Positions 57,423 to 63,007 of a stretch of DNA of 64,000 bases are shown in pieces. Source of the DNA: an uncultured virus (IMG/VR IMGVR_UViG_3300031885_002559) (Duplodnaviria > Heunggongvirae > Uroviricota > Caudoviricetes); the IMG/VR virus record IMGVR_UViG_3300031885_002559; one strand, 5' to 3'. Each line of letters opens with the position of its first letter. Within the stretch, counting starts at the first letter, position 1. The notes under the pieces are model-generated. The model saw only the letters and a list, made by a program, of their open reading frames with translations, did not search any database and was not told where the DNA came from. The translations under genes were made by a program, and so were the position numbers.

Positions 57423-57506
57423 TGGTCGTCGCGGGGAGACTTGCACTCCCAAGGCTCTCAGGCTCTCGACCTGAACCCTCTGCTATTCGGGCTTAACCAC
57501 GCGACG
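57423..57506 (-). tRNA. tRNA-Leu(GAG), non-canonical fold
   Basis: 7-bp acceptor, TCAGG-TCGAGAG-CCTGA, T-arm, ACCA end. Confidence 0.7.
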
Positions 57507-57525
57507 GAAAGCTGTTCTACGGACT

Positions 57526-58026
57526 GTGCCCGTACACCAAAGAAGGCCAGACCTCATCAACGAGGCAAACATCGCTGAAAGCAGCAGGGTCTACTGGAAA
57601 CATCACGGTATTCTGCTAGTACCCATCAAGGCTGACGAAATGGCCGAGACAGACATCGTGTGGCTTTCAGGCCAGTACGCGGGCCTTGTAAACGAGTGTA
57701 AGTGCCGTTTCCGTGTTAAAGTCACCGACTACGATTTGCTGATCGACAAAAAGAAGATCAACGCAGGCATCAAAGAGGCAGAACGCCTTAACGTCAGATT
57801 CTTGTTAACAATCTGGTGGGGAGCCCAAAACGGTATTGGCGACGACGTAGCGTGGGCACGCTGGATCGACCGAGACGAGGCGAGTAAGTTCAAGGTGGTC
57901 CTGTGGGGACGAAACGATGAACGCGACGACAACGACATAGACCCCTCGTACAGCATACCTACTCACACTTTCACCATAGCGATTCCAATGCTCTACGAGA
58001 GGCTGCGATCACCCGCATCTACGTGA
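57526..58026 (+). CDS. PD-(D/E)XK nuclease-like protein
   Basis: ETDIV...VNECKCR pattern. Confidence 0.55.
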   Translation: MPVHQRRPDLINEANIAESSRVYWKHHGILLVPIKADEMAETDIVWLSGQYAGLVNECKCRFRVKVTDYDLLIDKKKINAGIKEAERLNVRFLLTIWWGAQNGIGDDVAWARWIDRDEASKFKVVLWGRNDERDDNDIDPSYSIPTHTFTIAIPMLYERLRSPAST

Positions 58027-58117
58027 CCGCACGCCGCTTAGCACGCGACGAAAAAGAAAATGGTGCCCGCCGCTTAGCACGCGACGGGCACCGGTATCAA
58101 ACGGAGCTTTTTAGCTT

Positions 58118-58257
58118 TGAAATCGAACAAGCACGAAACTTTGAGCTTGATCCTGATGCTCTACCGCTGAGCTACCCGCTCAAAACCAAAACCGTGAAAG
58201 TGGCGAGCGGGATGGGATTTGAACCCACGACCTCAGTTTAAGTTGTTTCGTCTCGCA
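58118..58257 (-). ncRNA. YrlA-like Y RNA (circularly permuted tRNA mimic)
   Basis: T-arm and 3' acceptor (GTGGGTTCAAATCCCATCCCGCTCGCCA) come before the 5' acceptor and D-arm (GAGCGGGTAGCTCAGCGGTAGAGC); closing stem ACGAAAC/GTTTCGT. Confidence 0.75.
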
Positions 58258-58370
58258 GATTTCCTTCCGCCTGCGTTGTTGAGCCTTCGGGTGATAGCCT
58301 GATCTTTAGCCTGAATCTGACGATTACCCTGAGCTTGGACAGGACTGCCTTACGACAGCCCCACCCGAAA

Positions 58371-59135
58371 TCAAACCTGACCGTTGAAGATGTAGCGCAG
58401 CAGATGCGCGCCGATCTTCTTGAAGAGGTCCACCTCTGTCTCGTTGGCCCGCGAGCGCGCTCGACGGACAGAGCGCAGCAGGATTTCCGAGCGTTCCAGC
58501 AGCTCCGCCTTCTCGGCGGGCGTGACCAACCCCGACCACTCTTGCTCGTGGATCGTACCAACCGGCACGTCCACGGTCAGCATCTCAGTCTGAGCCGGGT
58601 GCTCCTTGGTGGCGTCGTACTTGATGACGACCCGCACGTCCTTCTTGGTGCGGGTCTTCACAACCTCACGCGCCCGGTAGATGTGCTCGCCGCGCTCCGG
58701 GTCCGCTGTGAAACCCTTGGCTGGGTCCAGCGTGGGCACGGCGTGAACGAGCGCGTGAATCTCCGCGATGCGCTTTTCCAGTTCGAGCAGAGCAGTTGCC
58801 GGAACGTCCTTGACCAGCACGGTCCCCGCGTCGTCGTCGAGAATGATGTCGGCGCGAGCCACGGTGTTGGCTTCAGCCACCTGAAACGACGCGTCCAGCG
58901 CCTTCTGGAGAAAAGCGCTGATCCACTTCAGCTCCTTGCGAACAGTCGATTGGATGTCCGACTGCCCCTCGGTGACGGCGGGCTTGCCCTCTTCCGAGGG
59001 AACGAACAGAACGCGCTTTTCTTCAAACAGGTGGCGCTTCTTTTCAAAGGTAGCGGCCAAGTCGGTACGCGTCTTGGTCGCCTGTGTTTCGAGATTGGTC
59101 TCAACGGCCAGTAGTTCGTGGAGTCGTGTTGGCAT
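58371..59135 (-). CDS. Conserved helical phage protein upstream of the Y-like RNA
   Basis: LHELLAVE start; VPATALLELEK, PTLDP, ATKEHPAQ, WSG; sigma70-like promoter upstream. Confidence 0.7.
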   Translation of the reverse strand: MPTRLHELLAVETNLETQATKTRTDLAATFEKKRHLFEEKRVLFVPSEEGKPAVTEGQSDIQSTVRKELKWISAFLQKALDASFQVAEANTVARADIILDDDAGTVLVKDVPATALLELEKRIAEIHALVHAVPTLDPAKGFTADPERGEHIYRAREVVKTRTKKDVRVVIKYDATKEHPAQTEMLTVDVPVGTIHEQEWSGLVTPAEKAELLERSEILLRSVRRARSRANETEVDLFKKIGAHLLRYIFNGQV

Positions 59136-59192
59136 ATCTGTGCGTAGCGTATACTTGTTGATGGTTTCGTCAACAGAAAAACTCGGTCAAAG

Positions 59193-59735
59193 TCACCGCC
59201 GCCTAAACCTATCGACGTAAACGGGAATCCGTGTTGGTGGTTTCACAGGCTCTTGTGAGACTTGTGGAACAGAATTGGTAGTCACCTGCTCAGGCGGTTT
59301 TGCTTTTAGCAGACGCCGTTTTCCCACTTCTTTGACGGCGATGACCTCTTTCGTCGCGCAATTCTCCGCCGCAGCTTCTTCTGCGGTCTCAAAGACAAGC
59401 TTGGCCCCGTTAGCTCGAACTACGATCCAGAACTTTCGCGCTTGGACAAGCACACCCGTTTTGCTGGGAACGTAAGCCGTCACGTCCCAGACAAGCGCTT
59501 TCATCTCCGTGATCGAGCACTCGCGCTCGCCTACGACTTCAATCACGCGCAGAGTCTCAAGTTCAGCAAAGCGCGGGCGAATACTGTCGATTTGGTAACC
59601 AGCCAGCGCGCTGGCAACTTCGTGCGCTGTCAGTGGGCCGTGGTGAAATAGGTGTGCGTATACACTCCAGCGCAATCCGGTCAGCAGTCCTGAGTCTTCA
59701 ATTTTTGCGTATGCTTCAGCACTGGTGTTGCGCAT
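59193..59735 (-). CDS. Winged-HTH protein
   Basis: GPLTAHEVA.....SIRPRFAELETLRVIEVVGER. Confidence 0.65.
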   Translation of the reverse strand: MRNTSAEAYAKIEDSGLLTGLRWSVYAHLFHHGPLTAHEVASALAGYQIDSIRPRFAELETLRVIEVVGERECSITEMKALVWDVTAYVPSKTGVLVQARKFWIVVRANGAKLVFETAEEAAAENCATKEVIAVKEVGKRRLLKAKPPEQVTTNSVPQVSQEPVKPPTRIPVYVDRFRRR

Positions 59736-59749
59736 ACCACTATAGAACG

Positions 59750-59781
59750 TGGTTGACCCGGTCGGCTACGATCCGACAACC
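59750..59781 (-). pseudogene. Isolated tRNA 3' half (T-arm, acceptor strand, CCA)
   Basis: GGTTGTCGGATCGTAGCCGACCGGGTCAACCA directly after the CCA of the adjacent tRNA. Confidence 0.6.
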
Positions 59782-59782
59782 T

Positions 59783-59858
59783 TGGTGGGCCTTGTGGGAC
59801 TCAAACCCACGGTCTATCGCTTATGAGGCGATTGCTTTAGTCGCTAAGCTAAAAGCCC
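59783..59858 (-). tRNA. tRNA with CAT anticodon (probably Ile2, possibly elongator Met)
   Basis: GGGC start, ATCGC-CTCATAA-GCGAT, ACCA. Confidence 0.8.
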
Positions 59859-59864
59859 AGAAAA

Positions 59865-59955
59865 TGGCGGAAGGCAGTGGACATCATCCACACCCCGGTT
59901 TAGCGGAGCCGTCGGTTTAGCAAACCGCGATAGCACGCTGGCTATTTTACCTTCC
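59865..59955 (-). tRNA. tRNA-Ser(GCT)
   Basis: GGAAGG start, CGGT-TTGCTAA-ACCG, long variable arm, GCCA end; degenerate D and T loops. Confidence 0.75.
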
Positions 59956-59960
59956 GTATA

Positions 59961-59995
59961 CAAAAGGCGGCTGGCCAGTTTCCCAGCCAGCCGCC
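59961..59995 (-). terminator. Intrinsic terminator after Ro60
   Basis: Minus strand GGCGGCTGGC...GCCAGCCGCC-TTTT. Confidence 0.75.
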
Positions 59996-60015
59996 GTTGG
60001 GCCTGTAGGCCGCAG

Positions 60016-61698
60016 CTATTCGTCAGCCACAGTCTCTTCGGCCTTGGCTGCCGCGTCACCACGGATGAAGTTCGCGATGATCGGCGGGGCCGACGCATCG
60101 AAACCTACGACATCCAGACCGAACTTGTCGGTCGGATCGTTGACGGTGAAGTCGTTCGCGCACGTAGCCACGAAGACCGACCGGGCATCCCGTACGAACT
60201 TCTGCCGGTACTCGCGCAGCGCCTGAGCCGGGTGGCGACCGCAGTTGACCTCACCGTCGGTCATGCAGATGAAGCCACCGACCTCCAGCTTGTTCTGGAG
60301 CGCGTACTGGAATGCCAGCGAGATGTCCGTCGAACCGAAGTTCGAGCGTAACGCCCGGTTCATCGCGTCGTCGAGCGACATACCCTTGCGGATACCCAGC
60401 TCCACGAACTGATGCGCAAACCCGAAGACGTGGCACTCTGGCTCCACGCTCAGGTGAATGAGCGACAAGGCCGCCGTTGCCTCGCACGAGCGAAGCACCG
60501 AGCCAGCGATCTGGCTGCCCATCGAGCCTGAAACATCCAGAGCGATGAGCACCGGCTTGCCGCAGGGTACGACGTTCGGAAACGCCGCGTAGAAGGCTTG
60601 GTCAAGGTCCGCTAGGATCGACGGGACCGGGGTCCACGTGAGATCGCCCTTGATGCCACGGCCCTGCCCGTATACGCGGTGAGCGACCAGCACCGCCATC
60701 GGGTGAATGCGCGACTTCCGCAGGTACGCTGCGTCAGTCAGTCGGTTCCGCACCAGTTTGGCCGCTGCCGACAGCGGCTTCACCAGCCCGATGGAGGTCA
60801 TCTTGCCGAGGTTACGGATCAGGGCCGTAAGCGGCATCTTCTGAAGCAGAGCCTCCCAGACGGCGAGGCTGTTCAGGTGCTGCGTCGGGATCGCCTCCCG
60901 AGGGAGGTTGCTCTCGACGATGAGTTCGATGACCCGCTTCTCGGAAGCCGTCTTGGCCTCCTCGAACGCCTTGATCAACTCGGGCAGGTAACGCGTGCGC
61001 GACGGGTACTTCGCGACGGTCTCCTTGGCCTTCCGCTTGACCTCCCGCGCACCCAGCACACCCATGCCGCCAACCATCCAGCGCAGAACCGAGTCCTGCG
61101 CGGCGGAGGCCGCCTTCGGATGAGCCAGACGCAGGATGTCTGCGTGGGTCCAACCGTCACGCTGCTGGTACTTGATCGCCTGAAAGGCCAACTGGTCAGC
61201 CTCCCGAGACGTGTACCAGCCGCTGGCTGCCCGGCAGATAGCTCGTCCCCATCCACGCAGCGCGTTGATGTACTGCGCGAAGTGGAACAGGTGCGTGCCG
61301 ATACGGCAAACCTTGGGGAGTGCCGCTGCCGCTGCCGCCTTGGCTGCCGTGTCACCGTGGGTGAGCGCCAGCGCCAGAGCGAAGATGGCCGGGTCATTGC
61401 GGTACGCAAGGCCCTTGTCGGAGACCTCAGTGATCCGCTTGACGGCCCGAACACCGTCAGCCTTGATGCAGCGTACGGTCGCGCCGTGCTTCTGCTTCAG
61501 GAGTTCCGGCTCCTTGATGTAGTACGTGCCCTTCTCGACCCCGAGGATCAGGAAGCGGTCAAGGTTTGCCCAGTCATCGACCTGCCAGACAAATCCGCCG
61601 TCGGAATCCGGCACCATGTCGGTGCGGCCCGGCAGAGGCTGGGTAACCGGCGTGTTGGTGGCGCGCCGGTTGAACTGCGTCATGTTGATGGTTGCCAT
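60016..61698 (-). CDS. rsr: Ro60/Rsr TROVE + vWA domain RNA-binding protein
   Basis: GGFVW, LDRFLILG, VCRIGTHLFHF, KYQQRDGWTH.D.LRLAHP, MPLTALIRNL, ALDVSGSM (MIDAS), TDGE, VVGFDA. Confidence 0.96.
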   Translation of the reverse strand: MATINMTQFNRRATNTPVTQPLPGRTDMVPDSDGGFVWQVDDWANLDRFLILGVEKGTYYIKEPELLKQKHGATVRCIKADGVRAVKRITEVSDKGLAYRNDPAIFALALALTHGDTAAKAAAAAALPKVCRIGTHLFHFAQYINALRGWGRAICRAASGWYTSREADQLAFQAIKYQQRDGWTHADILRLAHPKAASAAQDSVLRWMVGGMGVLGAREVKRKAKETVAKYPSRTRYLPELIKAFEEAKTASEKRVIELIVESNLPREAIPTQHLNSLAVWEALLQKMPLTALIRNLGKMTSIGLVKPLSAAAKLVRNRLTDAAYLRKSRIHPMAVLVAHRVYGQGRGIKGDLTWTPVPSILADLDQAFYAAFPNVVPCGKPVLIALDVSGSMGSQIAGSVLRSCEATAALSLIHLSVEPECHVFGFAHQFVELGIRKGMSLDDAMNRALRSNFGSTDISLAFQYALQNKLEVGGFICMTDGEVNCGRHPAQALREYRQKFVRDARSVFVATCANDFTVNDPTDKFGLDVVGFDASAPPIIANFIRGDAAAKAEETVADE

Positions 61699-61838
61699 AG
61701 GTAATGGCAGTCGTACTTCCCGTATACGTTATCGGGTTTTCACCGCTGGCTGCTGCTACAGCCTGATGGTTTTTGACAGTCGTCCAGCAAGGGAATCGGC
61801 CAGACGAAAGCGACGAAGAGAAGAACACGAAAGAAGAA

Positions 61839-61969
61839 TGGCGAGCAAAGAGACGCAGTCGGAAATGCTGACCGCTGTGCTACCGCTACACCAACTCCCG
61901 GTGTTCGGGAGCCAAGGAGTCGAACCTTGTCCAACGGTTCCGATGATAACCAACTACTACGGCTCGCCA
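61839..61969 (-). ncRNA. yrlA: YrlA Y RNA upstream of Ro60
   Basis: Terminal stem GGCGAGC/GCTCGCC; T-arm CAAGG-TTCGACT-CCTTG; loop-closed acceptor GCTCCCG/CGGGAGT; then D-arm TGGTGTAGCGGTAGCAC. Confidence 0.85.
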
Positions 61970-61972
61970 AAG

Positions 61973-62425
61973 TGGTGGAGGCGAGGGGAATCGAACCCCT
62001 GTCCTTATGCGCCTTGCGACGCGTTCACATGCTTCCCCGATTTTGACCAGTAGACTGGAGCCAGACCGGGAACTGCTCTCAGCCGGTGCGGTGAAGACCA
62101 CCGCCGGTCAGCGCCGACTTGTTCGCTCGGCACCCAGACTAACCTGCTGTCGTCGGTCGGCCCAGCCTAGCAGGCGTCAGTTGGCGACCGTCGCACGGCG
62201 TTTAGGCCGCAGCGAGTTCCAGAACCTCGGTCTCTTCAAACTGAACGAGGATCGCATCCGGGTTGCGGATGATCTCCGTCGCTTCAGCGAGCAGGGACTC
62301 GATGTTCAGGGTATCAGTTGCTTCGTCAGCAGTTGATGTTTGCCTCGGGGTTTTACGTGGCCAACGAGACATCCACGGCATGTAGCGCACGGTCCAGCAA
62401 CACAAGTCGAGACCTGTACGCCCCC
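61973..62425 (-). ncRNA. ssrA: tmRNA
   Basis: 5' GGGGGCGTACAGGTCTCGAC, 3' GGGGTTCGATTCCCCTCGCCTCCACCA, G3-U70 pair; tag frame 62330-62202 ending LAAA-stop. Confidence 0.93.
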
Positions 62426-62531
62426 ATCAAAGAACGATCTGAAAATAGGCCCCGGATCACTCCGGGGTCGGGGCTGGCTGGTTCAACAGCCGCCATCCAC
62501 CATTCCGCCGCACATACGGCGAAATCGAAAT

Positions 62532-62608
62532 TGGTTGCGGGAGCTGGATTTGAACCAGCGACCTCTTGGTTATGAGCCAAGCGAGCTTCCGGGCTGCTCC
62601 ACCCCGCG
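62532..62608 (-). tRNA. tRNA-fMet(CAT)
   Basis: CGCGGGGTGGAGCAGCCCGG start, C1:A72 mismatch, CTCATAA loop. Confidence 0.9.
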
Positions 62609-62661
62609 ATGCAAAGAACGCTGTTACCGTATACCTGCGCGAATCTCTGTCAACGAAAAGT

Positions 62662-62745
62662 TGGTCGGCGCGGAGGGACTTGCACCCTCAAGGCTGACGG
62701 ATTTTGAATCCGTCCGGTCTGCTATTCCCTGTGAACCACGCGCCG
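62662..62745 (-). tRNA. tRNA-Leu(CAA), non-canonical fold
   Basis: ACGGA-TTCAAAA-TCCGT, 7-bp acceptor, ACCA. Confidence 0.75.
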
Positions 62746-62751
62746 ACTAGA

Positions 62752-62835
62752 TGGTGTCCGCACCGGGACTTGCACCCGGAAGGGGCGGGGGTTTAAGCCC
62801 CGTGGCTCTGCTGTTCGCGCTGACCCCATGCGGAC
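62752..62835 (-). tRNA. tRNA-Leu(TAA), non-canonical fold
   Basis: CGGGG-CTTAAAC-CCCCG, ACCA. Confidence 0.75.
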
Positions 62836-62843
62836 GTATACAG

Positions 62844-62919
62844 TGGTCGCTCCAGTCGGGGTTGCACCGACAACCTCTGGTTCCTAAGACCAGCGCCTCT
62901 GCTATTGGGCTATGGAGCG
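62844..62919 (-). tRNA. tRNA-Leu(TAG), short variable loop
   Basis: CTGGT-CTTAGGA-ACCAG, 76 nt, ACCA. Confidence 0.8.
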
Positions 62920-62923
62920 AAGA

Positions 62924-63007
62924 TGGTCGCCACGAGACGAATTGCACGTCCAAGGCTCACTCCTTCTGAGGGAGGCCCGTCTGCTATTCCGGGTAAACCA
63001 CGTGGCG
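62924..63007 (-). tRNA. tRNA-Leu(CAG), non-canonical fold
   Basis: CTCC-CTCAGAA-GGAG, ACCA. Confidence 0.72.

What the first reader, a model, noticed from the sequence alone, without database searches (positions are those of the whole stretch)
57423..63007. Five Leu-anticodon tRNAs without the class II variable arm; four share a new-looking extra helix
GAG, CAA, TAA, CAG and TAG anticodons are all present. Bacterial tRNA-Leu normally has a long variable arm; none of these does. The four 84-nt genes have an insertion between the acceptor and D-arm that is complementary to the short variable region (GGTT/AGCC in three, GGGG/CCCC in the TAA gene), a compensatory pattern implying an extra helix. 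All share the D-loop motif AA(T/C)AGCAGA. They may resist host anticodon/tRNA nucleases, be charged by a dedicated synthetase, be mischarged, or act as decoys.
Basis: partly seen in the sequence, partly recalled or inferred. Interest (0 to 1): 0.75.

Follow-up and report, generated by a model that had tools for sequence, protein, structure and literature searches.

The report
Phage leucine tRNAs with extra helix
A T4-like phage carries a full set of leucine tRNA genes that have lost the usual side arm, and four of them instead have a new short helix in the tRNA core, a shape that standard tRNA finders miss and that recurs in many uncultured phages and mobile tRNA gene clusters.

Summary
The window is a T4-like phage fragment. 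On its minus strand lie four 84-nt Leu-anticodon genes (GAG, CAG, CAA, UAA) and one 76-nt tRNA-Leu(UAG). None has a class II variable hairpin. ARAGORN at default settings and Rfam tRNA miss all four 84-nt genes.

Motif scans found 189 distinct relatives, all with Leu anticodons. A73 is present in 186 of them.

The proposed helix joins 4 nt after U8 to 4 nt of the variable region. It is 96.7% paired, with compensatory changes at three of four pairs: 23 doubly changed cells against 1.8 in shuffles. RNAalifold predicts it unaided. The D-loop/T-loop elbow pairs also covary.

These are not host housekeeping tRNAs. Four Verrucomicrobiota genomes carrying this family (three with the extra-helix type, one only a short relative) each keep dispersed class II tRNA-Leu genes. 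The family sits in phage contigs and in dense tRNA clusters.

My reading is that these are working leucine tRNAs with a five-helix fold, possibly evading toxins that target class II tRNAs. Function is untested. I found no description in print, and the scan had no look-alike.

The parts
57423..57506 (-). 84-nt tRNA-Leu(GAG), extra-helix type; anticodon loop UCGAGAG (C33); A73 and CCA encoded
   Evidence: Sequence read. Scores 98.3 bits with family model R1. Missed by ARAGORN at default settings and by Rfam tRNA.
57495..57498 (-). 5' strand of the new helix (GGUU) in Leu(GAG)
   Evidence: helix columns 9-14 of alignment A4.
57453..57456 (-). 3' strand of the new helix (AGCC) in Leu(GAG), followed by UU and the T stem
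   Evidence: helix columns 63-66 of alignment A4.
62662..62745 (-). 84-nt tRNA-Leu(CAA), extra-helix type; helix strands at 62734-62737 (GGUU) and 62692-62695 (AGCC)
   Evidence: 101.2 bits with R1.
62752..62835 (-). 84-nt tRNA-Leu(UAA), extra-helix type with the compensated helix GGGG (62824-62827) / CCCC (62782-62785); 4-nt linker UCAG
   Evidence: 71.8 bits with R1.
62844..62919 (-). 76-nt tRNA-Leu(UAG), class I shape: 2-nt connector, 5-nt variable loop, same D-loop motif CAAUAGCAGA and T loop UGCAACC
   Evidence: ARAGORN; Rfam tRNA 54.4 bits.
62924..63007 (-). 84-nt tRNA-Leu(CAG), extra-helix type; helix strands at 62996-62999 (GGUU) and 62954-62957 (AGCC)
   Evidence: 94.1 bits with R1. 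The single-sequence minimum-energy fold contains the helix.

Best explanation
These are genuine phage-borne leucine tRNAs of a previously undescribed architecture.

Proposed layout: acceptor stem (7 bp), U8, helix strand X (4 nt), a 2-nt linker, D stem (4 bp plus a G.A pair) abutting the anticodon stem directly with no nucleotide 26, anticodon arm, 1 nt, helix strand X' (4 nt), UU, T arm, acceptor 3' strand, A73, CCA.

X pairs with X'. The usual four-way junction is therefore split into two three-way junctions bridged by a 4-bp helix. That helix would lie alongside the D stem, where the 8-9 connector and the variable loop normally run. The L shape is kept by an altered elbow (A18.G55 with G19-C56).

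Inferred steps, not shown:
- The genes are transcribed with the neighbouring tRNAs and processed.
- They are leucylated by the host LeuRS through A73 and the U8-A14 / A15-U48 core.
- Together with the 76-nt UAG gene they read all six leucine codons.

The most likely benefit is that the phage's leucine decoding becomes independent of the host's class II tRNA-Leu. Those host tRNAs are the kind preferred by some tRNA-directed defence toxins. The phage versions also differ in the anticodon loop: A37 instead of G37, and C33 in the GAG species.

My odds:
- Real structured RNA containing the X helix: 0.9.
- Active leucine tRNA: 0.7.
- Defence evasion as the reason for the shape: 0.4.
For: Family size and identity.
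- 189 distinct extra-helix sequences were collected from the window, viral contigs, metagenomes and genomes. 188 parse to Leu anticodons: CAA 56, CAG 46, UAA 39, UAG 26, GAG 19, AAG 2. One is out of register because of a one-base insertion.
- A73 is present in 186 of 189, A14A15 in 189, U8 in 187, UU before the T stem in 189, and CCA in 154.

The four standard helices covary strongly.
- On the ungapped alignment A2 (148 sequences), 97.2% of cells are paired against 73.4% in shuffles.
- 815 cells are doubly changed against 234, with 0 of 500 shuffles as high.

The new helix, on A4 (107 distinct rows).
- 96.7% of cells are paired.
- Pair types: GC96/GU9; GC97/AU2/CG1/UA1/GU1; UG77/CG11/AU6/GC5/UA2; UA92/CG8.
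- 23 doubly changed cells against 1.8 +/- 1.3 in shuffles (0 of 500). Covariation score 0.278 against 0.02-0.14 for slid partners.
- RNAalifold predicts the helix on its own.
- Compensated variants lie on different contigs: GGCU/AGCC, GGGU/ACCC, GGAU/AUCC, GGAC/GUCC, GAAC/GUUC, GGUC/GACU, GUCC/GGAU, GGGG/CCCC.

Elbow covariation, nucleotides 18,19 | 55,56 in 136 rows: AG|GC 123, GG|UC 6, AC|GG 2. Six rows do not fit: two true mixtures (GG|GC, AU|GC), three with gaps in the D-loop columns and one misaligned.

Complete isoacceptor sets occur in the window (five anticodons) and in other phage contigs. For example, one 75-kb viral contig carries CAG, GAG, UAG, UAA and CAA.

Genomic setting.
- The window is phage: Gp23 capsid, prohead protease and a gp5-like baseplate protein.
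- Verrucomicrobiota genomes that carry this family (G002-G004 the extra-helix type, G001 only a 78-nt short relative) keep dispersed class II tRNA-Leu. G001, G002 and G003 each have 5 of 5 anticodons; G004 has 4 among the genes fetched.
- The family sits in dense tRNA clusters.

Anticodon loops.
- Host class II Leu(CAG), Leu(GAG) and Leu(UAG) of G001 have G37 and U33.
- The family has A37 in 46 of 46 CAG and 19 of 19 GAG sequences, and C33 in 19 of 19 GAG sequences.

Literature.
- E. coli leucine identity rests on A73, A14, A15-U48, G18G19 and A20a, and not on the variable arm (PMC9976931, passages read).
- MenT3 and AbiEii nucleotidyltransferase toxins prefer long-armed class II tRNAs (PMC7450476 and bioRxiv 10.64898/2026.01.19.700257, passages read).
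- Phage tRNAs are proposed to evade host tRNases through loop changes (PMC10264068, abstract and passages).
- AbiEii homologues are frequent in three of the four host genomes, and two pairs flank the G002 tRNA cluster.
Against: - There are no expression, processing or aminoacylation data.
- The helix is only 4 bp with a U.G pair. 14 of 422 cells are unpaired. In the UAA subgroup the fourth pair is often mismatched, or needs a one-base bulge to form.
- In the 148 ungapped sequences the helix is almost invariant (GGUU/AGCC), so that set alone neither supports nor refutes it.
- Alignment A4 was fitted to the model structure, which favours pairing.
- Single-sequence minimum-energy folds contain the whole helix only for the CAG gene, and 2 bp of it for GAG. 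CAA and UAA fold otherwise.
- A18 and G55 depart from G18G19 and G18-U55. [quoted passage not shown]
- C33 and A37 are unusual for CUN-reading bacterial tRNAs.
- The host of the window's phage is inferred only from where the relatives lie.
- The link to AbiE is one neighbourhood in the four genomes searched for AbiEii; flanking genes were read only for G002.
Confidence: 0.55

Rival explanations
1. They are working leucine tRNAs, but the odd shape has no defence role. It would be a lineage-specific structural variant that arose once in mobile tRNA clusters and is maintained by stabilising selection. The genes would simply add leucine-decoding capacity for phage genes.
For: - Same structural and identity evidence as the best explanation.
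- The same contigs also carry 76-nt Leu tRNAs and class II Leu tRNAs with small variable hairpins. All share the D-loop and T-loop motifs, so several shapes coexist without an obvious rule.
- The AbiE neighbourhood was seen in only one of the four genomes searched for AbiEii.
Against: - The changes at anticodon-loop positions 33 and 37 are systematic across the family, and the variable hairpin is consistently removed. This looks directional.
- Complete leucine sets are unusual if the genes merely add supply.
Confidence: 0.22
2. They are non-decoding tRNA mimics. They could be decoys that soak up tRNA-directed nucleases or nucleotidyltransferases, or ligands for the neighbouring Ro60/Rsr RNA-quality-control module.
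For: - They lie in a cluster with a Ro60/Rsr gene, a Y-RNA-like hit and a tmRNA.
- The elbow and core are non-standard.
- Standard tRNA models do not recognise them.
Against: - Five or six different Leu anticodons are each conserved across contigs.
- Anticodon loops are 7 nt, A73 is present in 186 of 189 and CCA is encoded in 154 of 189.
- A decoy would not need complete isoacceptor sets or a preserved anticodon stem. All five anticodon-stem pairs show doubly changed cells.
Confidence: 0.1
3. They are charged by something other than the host LeuRS. This could be a phage-encoded synthetase elsewhere in the genome, or mischarging with another amino acid that recodes leucine codons.
For: - G18 and U55, reported as LeuRS-relevant, are replaced (PMC2377443 abstract).
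- Only 64 kb of the phage genome is available.
Against: - No synthetase domain was found in 55 window ORFs scanned with Pfam.
- A73, A14 and A15 with U before the T stem match the leucine identity set (PMC9976931 passages).
- The same family sits in chromosomal islands next to no synthetase, in the 40 kb read around the G002 cluster.
Confidence: 0.06
4. They are decayed tRNA pseudogenes, or the complementarity arose by chance.
For: Default tRNA finders reject them.
Against: - 189 distinct sequences show compensatory changes in all five helices. No shuffle of 500 reaches the observed values.
- The motif is enriched in the window: 6 occurrences against 0.84 expected.
Confidence: 0.02

Closest known systems
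Bacterial class II tRNA-Leu (for example the dispersed tRNA-Leu genes of the Verrucomicrobiota genomes G001-G004, or E. coli tRNA-Leu)
   Same: Leu anticodons and A73. U8, then G13 A14 A15 U at the start of the D loop and ...CAGA at its end. A G13.A22-type closing pair, a U before the T stem, and an overall length of 84-85 nt. The host D loop GAAUUGGCAGA differs from the family's GAAUAGCAGA by one deleted U and G18 to A.
   Different: There is no variable hairpin. Five extra nucleotides follow U8 and pair with the variable region. Nucleotide 26 is absorbed into the D stem. The elbow is A18.G55 instead of G18.U55. A37 replaces G37 in the CAG and GAG species and in most UAG, and the GAG species have C33.
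Animal mitochondrial tRNA-Leu (class I shape, no long variable arm)
   Same: These are leucine tRNAs without the long arm, recognised mainly through A73 and A14 (PMC9976931, passage on human mt-tRNA-Leu(UUR)). The window's 76-nt UAG gene has this shape.
   Different: The setting is bacterial or phage, the sequences are unrelated, and mitochondrial tRNA-Leu has no extra helix.
Known non-canonical tRNAs: tRNA-Sec, allo-tRNAs (8/4, 9/3), tRNA-Pyl and armless mitochondrial tRNAs
   Same: All are natural departures from the standard cloverleaf, partly found by metagenome mining (PMC7609411 passages; PMC5389517 abstract).
   Different: Those change stem lengths or lose arms. None, in the passages I read, adds a helix between the acceptor/D connector and the variable region. 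The family here keeps the 7/5 acceptor/T arrangement.
Phage tRNAs proposed or shown to escape host tRNA-targeting defences (mycobacteriophage and T5-type tRNAs)
   Same: They are phage-borne tRNAs whose anticodon loops differ from the host's at or near known cleavage sites (PMC10264068 abstract and passages; PMC11555353 abstract only).
   Different: In those cases the change is a few loop bases. Here the whole core and the variable arm are rebuilt, and no cognate host enzyme is known.

Membership tests
tRNA as modelled by Rfam RF00005 (cloverleaf) | Score at or above the gathering threshold (29 bits) | tested here: not met
   0 of the 4 84-nt genes are reported even at E up to 10. The 76-nt UAG gene scores 54.4 bits.
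tRNA as modelled by Rfam RF00005 (cloverleaf) | 7-bp acceptor stem, 5-bp anticodon stem with a 7-nt loop, 5-bp T stem with a 7-nt loop, all supported by covariation | tested here: met
   92.7-99.8% of cells paired. Doubly changed cells occur in 16 of these 17 pairs; the remaining pair (T-stem G53-C61) never varies.
tRNA as modelled by Rfam RF00005 (cloverleaf) | Four-way junction with a 2-nt connector (positions 8-9) and a single nucleotide 26 | tested here: not met
   Seven nucleotides lie between the acceptor and D stems, four of them in a new helix. Position 26 pairs within the D stem.
tRNA as modelled by Rfam RF00005 (cloverleaf) | D-loop/T-loop elbow pairs 18-55 and 19-56 | tested here: met
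   Covariation AG|GC 123, GG|UC 6, AC|GG 2; two true mixtures among six non-fitting rows in 136. The identity of the pairs is unusual (A.G).
Bacterial class II tRNA-Leu | Leu anticodon and discriminator A73 | tested here: met
   188 of 189 sequences parse to a Leu anticodon (one is out of register). A73 is present in 186 of 189.
Bacterial class II tRNA-Leu | Long variable arm forming its own hairpin (10 nt or more) | tested here: not met
   The variable region is 7 nt (6 in the UAA gene) with no hairpin.
Bacterial class II tRNA-Leu | Core determinants U8-A14, A15-U48, G18G19, A20a | tested here: inconclusive
   U8 is present in 187 of 189, A14A15 in 189 and U before the T stem in 189. G18 is replaced by A. 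Whether the tertiary pairs form cannot be told from sequence.
Bacterial class II tRNA-Leu | Leucylation by LeuRS | not testable with these tools
   Needs an aminoacylation assay.
allo-tRNA (8/4 or 9/3 acceptor/T branch) | Acceptor stem of 8 or 9 bp with a T stem of 4 or 3 bp | tested here: not met
   The arrangement is 7/5.
Nuclease-evading phage tRNAs | Phage-borne, with anticodon-loop differences from the host tRNA of the same anticodon | tested here: met
   Phage genes in the window. A37 and C33 against G37 and U33 in class II Leu of the Verrucomicrobiota genome G001. The host assignment is inferred.
Nuclease-evading phage tRNAs | Insensitivity to a defined host tRNA-targeting enzyme | not testable with these tools
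   No enzyme is identified. AbiEii homologues are only a lead.

The most novel reading that the evidence does not exclude
This would be a natural, translation-competent tRNA family that abandons the cloverleaf. It has five helices and two three-way junctions, with a strut helix replacing both the tertiary core and the class II arm. It would have evolved in phages and mobile tRNA clusters of Verrucomicrobiota so that leucine decoding survives immune toxins that recognise the long arm or the anticodon loop of host class II tRNAs.
Probability: 0.3. Interest if true: 0.9.

Novelty: new variant of a known kind. Interest (0 to 1): 0.8.

Why it matters
[quoted passage not shown] If these RNAs are active, several things follow:
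- The tRNA core tolerates an added helix in nature.
- Bacterial LeuRS, EF-Tu, RNase P and the ribosome accept such a tRNA.
- Standard annotation misses a whole class of phage tRNA genes. Here it missed four of five leucine tRNAs.

The family would also make directly testable the idea that phages rebuild tRNA bodies, and not only anticodon loops, to escape tRNA-directed immunity. It could also supply compact, possibly orthogonal, leucine tRNA scaffolds for genetic-code engineering.

Tried and rejected
1. I tested whether the 84-nt type is the native housekeeping tRNA-Leu of a Verrucomicrobiota clade. This was prompted, where 55 of 71 genome loci carry a Verrucomicrobiota-type label.
   - Rejected. 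G001, G002 and G003 each have all five class II tRNA-Leu genes dispersed, and G004 has four among the genes fetched.
   - With model R1, among 151 evenly drawn genomes of the phylum, the only listed hits above about 55 bits (three, at 82-101 bits) lie in the centre genome G002. Class II Leu genes score about 45-55 bits (641 weaker matches were not listed).
2. Close relatives among deposited phages.
   - Megablast of 7.5 kb found only tRNA-Met pieces.
   - blastn in distant mode on the 346-nt Leu cluster found nothing in 50,697 records.
3. Expression: no RNA holder listed.
4. The whole genome of the window is not held, so the rest of the phage could not be searched for a synthetase.
5. MAFFT alignment A1 shifted the 85-nt subgroup by one column and was not used for counts.
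6. A regex for the elbow nucleotides was unreliable. I replaced it with alignment columns.
7. Pfam and PHROGs scans of neighbouring ORFs gave no tRNA-modifying enzyme or synthetase.
8. Literature. Six full-text searches and passages of a review of non-canonical tRNAs (PMC7609411) gave no description of a tRNA-Leu with this helix, or of class I-shaped phage tRNA-Leu. Subscription-only papers are not covered.
9. Earlier notes of this scan.
   - By sequence: 0 look-alike windows.
   - By place: none.
   - By words: other remodelled phage tRNAs, but not this fold.

Full report
**What is in the window**

On the minus strand lie five genes with leucine anticodons:
- Leu(GAG) 57423-57506
- Leu(CAA) 62662-62745
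- Leu(UAA) 62752-62835
- Leu(UAG) 62844-62919
- Leu(CAG) 62924-63007

Four are 84 nt and one (UAG) is 76 nt. All end in A-CCA. None has the hairpin-forming long variable arm of bacterial tRNA-Leu.

ARAGORN at default settings finds only the 76-nt gene. Rfam's tRNA model reports none of the four long genes, even at E up to 10. Relaxed ARAGORN settings find some of them but mislabel them.

The D-loop motif AAYAGCAGA occurs six times in the window, five of them in these genes. Shuffles give 0.84 on average, and none of 100 reaches six.

The window itself is phage. It encodes a T4-type Gp23 major capsid protein, a prohead protease, a gp5-like baseplate protein and a 5'-3' exonuclease. No aminoacyl-tRNA synthetase was found among the 55 ORFs scanned.

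The tRNA cluster also holds:
- tRNAs for Gln, Lys, Met (two) and Arg
- a tmRNA and a weak Y-RNA-like hit
- a Ro60/Rsr gene

**Relatives**

Scans for the D-loop and T-loop motifs left the proposed helix strands free. They returned:
- 40 viral loci
- 71 loci in species-representative genomes

After removing chance matches by requiring a paired acceptor stem, 189 distinct sequences of the long type remained. Of these, 188 parse to leucine anticodons: CAA 56, CAG 46, UAA 39, UAG 26, GAG 19 and AAG 2. One is out of register because of a one-base insertion.

Conserved features among the 189:
- A73 in 186
- A14A15 in 189
- U8 in 187
- UU before the T stem in 189
- encoded CCA in 154
- a CCG ending in 22, because the next tRNA gene starts inside the CCA

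A covariance model built from 148 ungapped sequences then found further, more divergent members in the same loci. At least 11 distinct viral contigs of 4.5 to 306 kb carry the type. Nothing similar is present in 50,697 deposited phage records.

**Is the extra helix real?**

The four standard helices covary as expected for a tRNA.

In the 148 ungapped sequences the proposed helix is 98.5% paired. It is almost invariant there (GGUU/AGCC), which says nothing either way.

The divergent members decide the matter. On the model-based alignment A4 (107 distinct rows), 96.7% of cells pair. Three of the four pairs show changes on both sides:
- pair 2: GC, AU, CG, UA
- pair 3: UG, CG, AU, GC, UA
- pair 4: UA, CG

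Taken alone, the helix has 23 doubly changed cells against 1.8 +/- 1.3 in shuffles (0 of 500). Its covariation score is 0.278, against 0.02-0.14 when the partner is slid by one to three columns.

A4 was fitted to the model, which favours pairing. Two independent lines agree, however:
- An anchor-based parse (four bases after U8, four bases before UU) gives the same variants.
- RNAalifold predicts the helix unaided.

Fully compensated variants on different contigs include GGCU/AGCC, GGGU/ACCC, GGAU/AUCC, GGAC/GUCC, GAAC/GUUC, GGUC/GACU, GUCC/GGAU and the window's GGGG/CCCC.

Evidence against the helix:
- 14 of 422 cells are unpaired.
- The UAA subgroup often mismatches the fourth pair, or needs a one-base bulge.
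- Single-sequence energy folds contain the whole helix only for the CAG gene.

**Refined architecture**

RNAalifold also pairs the last 'linker' base with the base that would be nucleotide 26. On the ungapped alignment this pair reads CG42, AU28, GC23, GU9, UG6, UA5, with 35 unpaired.

The layout is therefore, from 5' to 3':
1. acceptor stem, 7 bp
2. U8
3. helix strand X, 4 nt
4. a 2-nt linker
5. D stem of 4 pairs plus G.A, with a loop that includes AAUAGCAG
6. anticodon arm, with no spacer between it and the D stem
7. 1 nt
8. helix strand X', 4 nt
9. UU
10. T arm
11. acceptor 3' strand
12. A73-CCA

The four-way junction thus becomes two three-way junctions bridged by the new helix.

From standard tRNA geometry (my inference), X runs from U8 down to the base of the D stem. 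X' runs from the top of the anticodon stem up to the T stem. The helix would then lie beside the D stem, where the 8-9 connector and the variable loop normally run. It would fill the place from which a class II arm emerges.

The elbow is kept. D-loop nucleotides 18,19 and T-loop nucleotides 55,56 read as follows in 136 rows:
- AG|GC in 123 rows
- GG|UC in 6 rows
- AC|GG in 2 rows
- six rows do not fit: two true mixtures (GG|GC, AU|GC), three with gaps in the D-loop columns and one misaligned

**Where the family lives**

Fifty-five of the 71 genome loci carry a Verrucomicrobiota-type label. The seven chance matches all lie in other phyla. Nine true matches sit in bins of other phyla or bins labelled only 'uncultured bacterium', some of them on short contigs.

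I first suspected that the long type was the clade's native tRNA-Leu. It is not:
- G001, G002 and G003 each have all five class II tRNA-Leu genes dispersed. G004 has four among the genes fetched.
- In these genomes the new type, or in G001 only its short relatives, sits in dense tRNA clusters.
- With the model, the only listed hits above about 55 bits (three, at 82-101 bits) in 151 evenly drawn genomes of the phylum lie in the centre genome G002 (641 weaker matches were not listed).

The G002 cluster contains RtcB. It is flanked on one side by an integrase, HipA, restriction-modification genes and a YhcG nuclease. On the other side are two AbiEi/AbiEii pairs and an IS110 transposase.

The family therefore belongs to phages and mobile islands. 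The window's phage probably infects Verrucomicrobiota; this is an inference.

**How it most likely works**

Shown: these are conserved, structured, tRNA-like RNAs with five covarying helices, a covarying elbow and leucine anticodons.

Inferred: they are leucylated by the host LeuRS. The following support this:
- In E. coli, leucine identity rests on A73, A14, A15-U48, G18G19 and A20a. The variable arm's sequence and fold do not matter (PMC9976931, passages).
- Human mitochondrial tRNA-Leu works without the arm (same source).

The following weigh against it:
- G18 is A in this family.
- Aquifex LeuRS needs G18-U55 and the orientation of the arm (PMC2377443, abstract).

The anticodon loops differ from those of the presumed hosts. 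A37 is present in all 46 CAG and all 19 GAG members, and C33 in all 19 GAG members. The host class II genes have G37 and U33.

Several published observations bear on the defence reading:
- Phage tRNAs are proposed to escape host tRNases by such loop changes (PMC10264068).
- MenT3 prefers long-armed tRNAs (PMC7450476, passages).

AbiEii homologues are frequent in three of the four host genomes. I therefore favour the reading that the rebuilt body frees leucine decoding from host class II tRNA-Leu under attack. I give that last step odds of only 0.4.

Rival readings are a neutral lineage variant, decoys, and other charging routes. They are weighed in their own sections.

**Comparison and novelty**

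The closest relatives by sequence are class II tRNA-Leu genes. The host D loop differs by one deleted U and one G-to-A change.

Membership of class II fails on its defining arm. Membership of the Rfam cloverleaf model fails on score and on junction topology. The allo-tRNA arrangement is not met.

Six literature searches and a review of non-canonical tRNAs gave no report of this fold. The scan's own notes hold no look-alike.

I class the family as a new variant of a known kind, tRNA. It is of high interest because the fold departs from the cloverleaf and the family is widespread but unannotated.

Noticed in passing
window 61973-62425 (-): A phage-encoded tmRNA (Rfam RF00023, 107 bits) lies between the Ro60/Rsr gene and the leucine tRNA run.
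   Followed up: no
window 58130-58251 (-) and 60016-61698 (-): A YrlA-type Y-RNA-like hit (37.3 bits, below the gathering score of 69) lies near a Ro60/Rsr gene (TROVE plus vWA_Ro60 domains). A DUF7873 protein (58371-59135) and an unknown 180-aa ORF lie between them. This looks like a phage-borne RNA quality-control module.
   Followed up: partly
window 59865-59956 (-): A 92-nt tRNA-Ser(GCU)-like RNA ending in CCA, with a long variable hairpin and an abnormal T arm (6 bp with a 3-nt loop in the energy fold). It is found only by ARAGORN at a relaxed threshold. Fold z-score -3.54.
   Followed up: partly
window 57423-57506 (-); L001, L009, L057, L060 and others: Every GAG isoacceptor of the family has C33 (19 of 19; loops UCGAGAG, UCGAGAA or CCGAGAA). 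So do 75-77-nt Leu(GAG) genes in L065 and in the G001 cluster. Host class II Leu(GAG) has U33.
   Followed up: partly
L062, L064, L080, L182, L207 and many others (positions about 401, 491, 573): A conserved CAG-UAA-CAA triplet of the new tRNAs is packed so tightly that the UAA gene ends in ACCG. Its C75 is the first base of the next tRNA, so the CCA end must be completed after cutting (22 of 189 sequences).
   Followed up: no
L015, L020, L028, L029, L031, L033, L040, L049; L019:1567-1650, L026:1635-1718, L101:659-740, L137:374-457, L011:3232-3316: The same or similar viral contigs carry 75-77-nt class I-shaped tRNA-Leu genes, and class II tRNA-Leu genes with very small variable hairpins (3-4 bp). 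All have the AAUAGCAG D loop and UGCAA T loop. This suggests a series of arm reductions within mobile leucine tRNAs.
   Followed up: partly
L003:3074-3159: An 86-nt Leu(UAA) gene has a perfect GGAU/AUCC extra helix but a canonical elbow (GG in the D loop, UUCGAAU T loop). The helix and the altered elbow are therefore separable.
   Followed up: no
L268 (G002:C5:790000-809999) and L269 (810000-829999): The chromosomal tRNA cluster that carries the new tRNAs contains RtcB and an SPFH protein. It is flanked by an integrase, HipA, a BsuBI/PstI-type restriction system, YhcG, two AbiEi/AbiEii pairs and an IS110 transposase. It looks like a defence or mobile island.
   Followed up: partly
L247 (G001:C2:4172005-4172089): ARAGORN calls a dispersed 86-nt class II tRNA with anticodon UUA, which would read the UAA stop codon, in a Verrucomicrobiae genome.
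   Followed up: no
window 61838-61975 (-): tRNA-like pieces lie just downstream of the tmRNA: a permuted-tmRNA hit of 28.4 bits (below the gathering score) and a T-arm-like GGUUCGACUCC. They are unexplained.
   Followed up: partly
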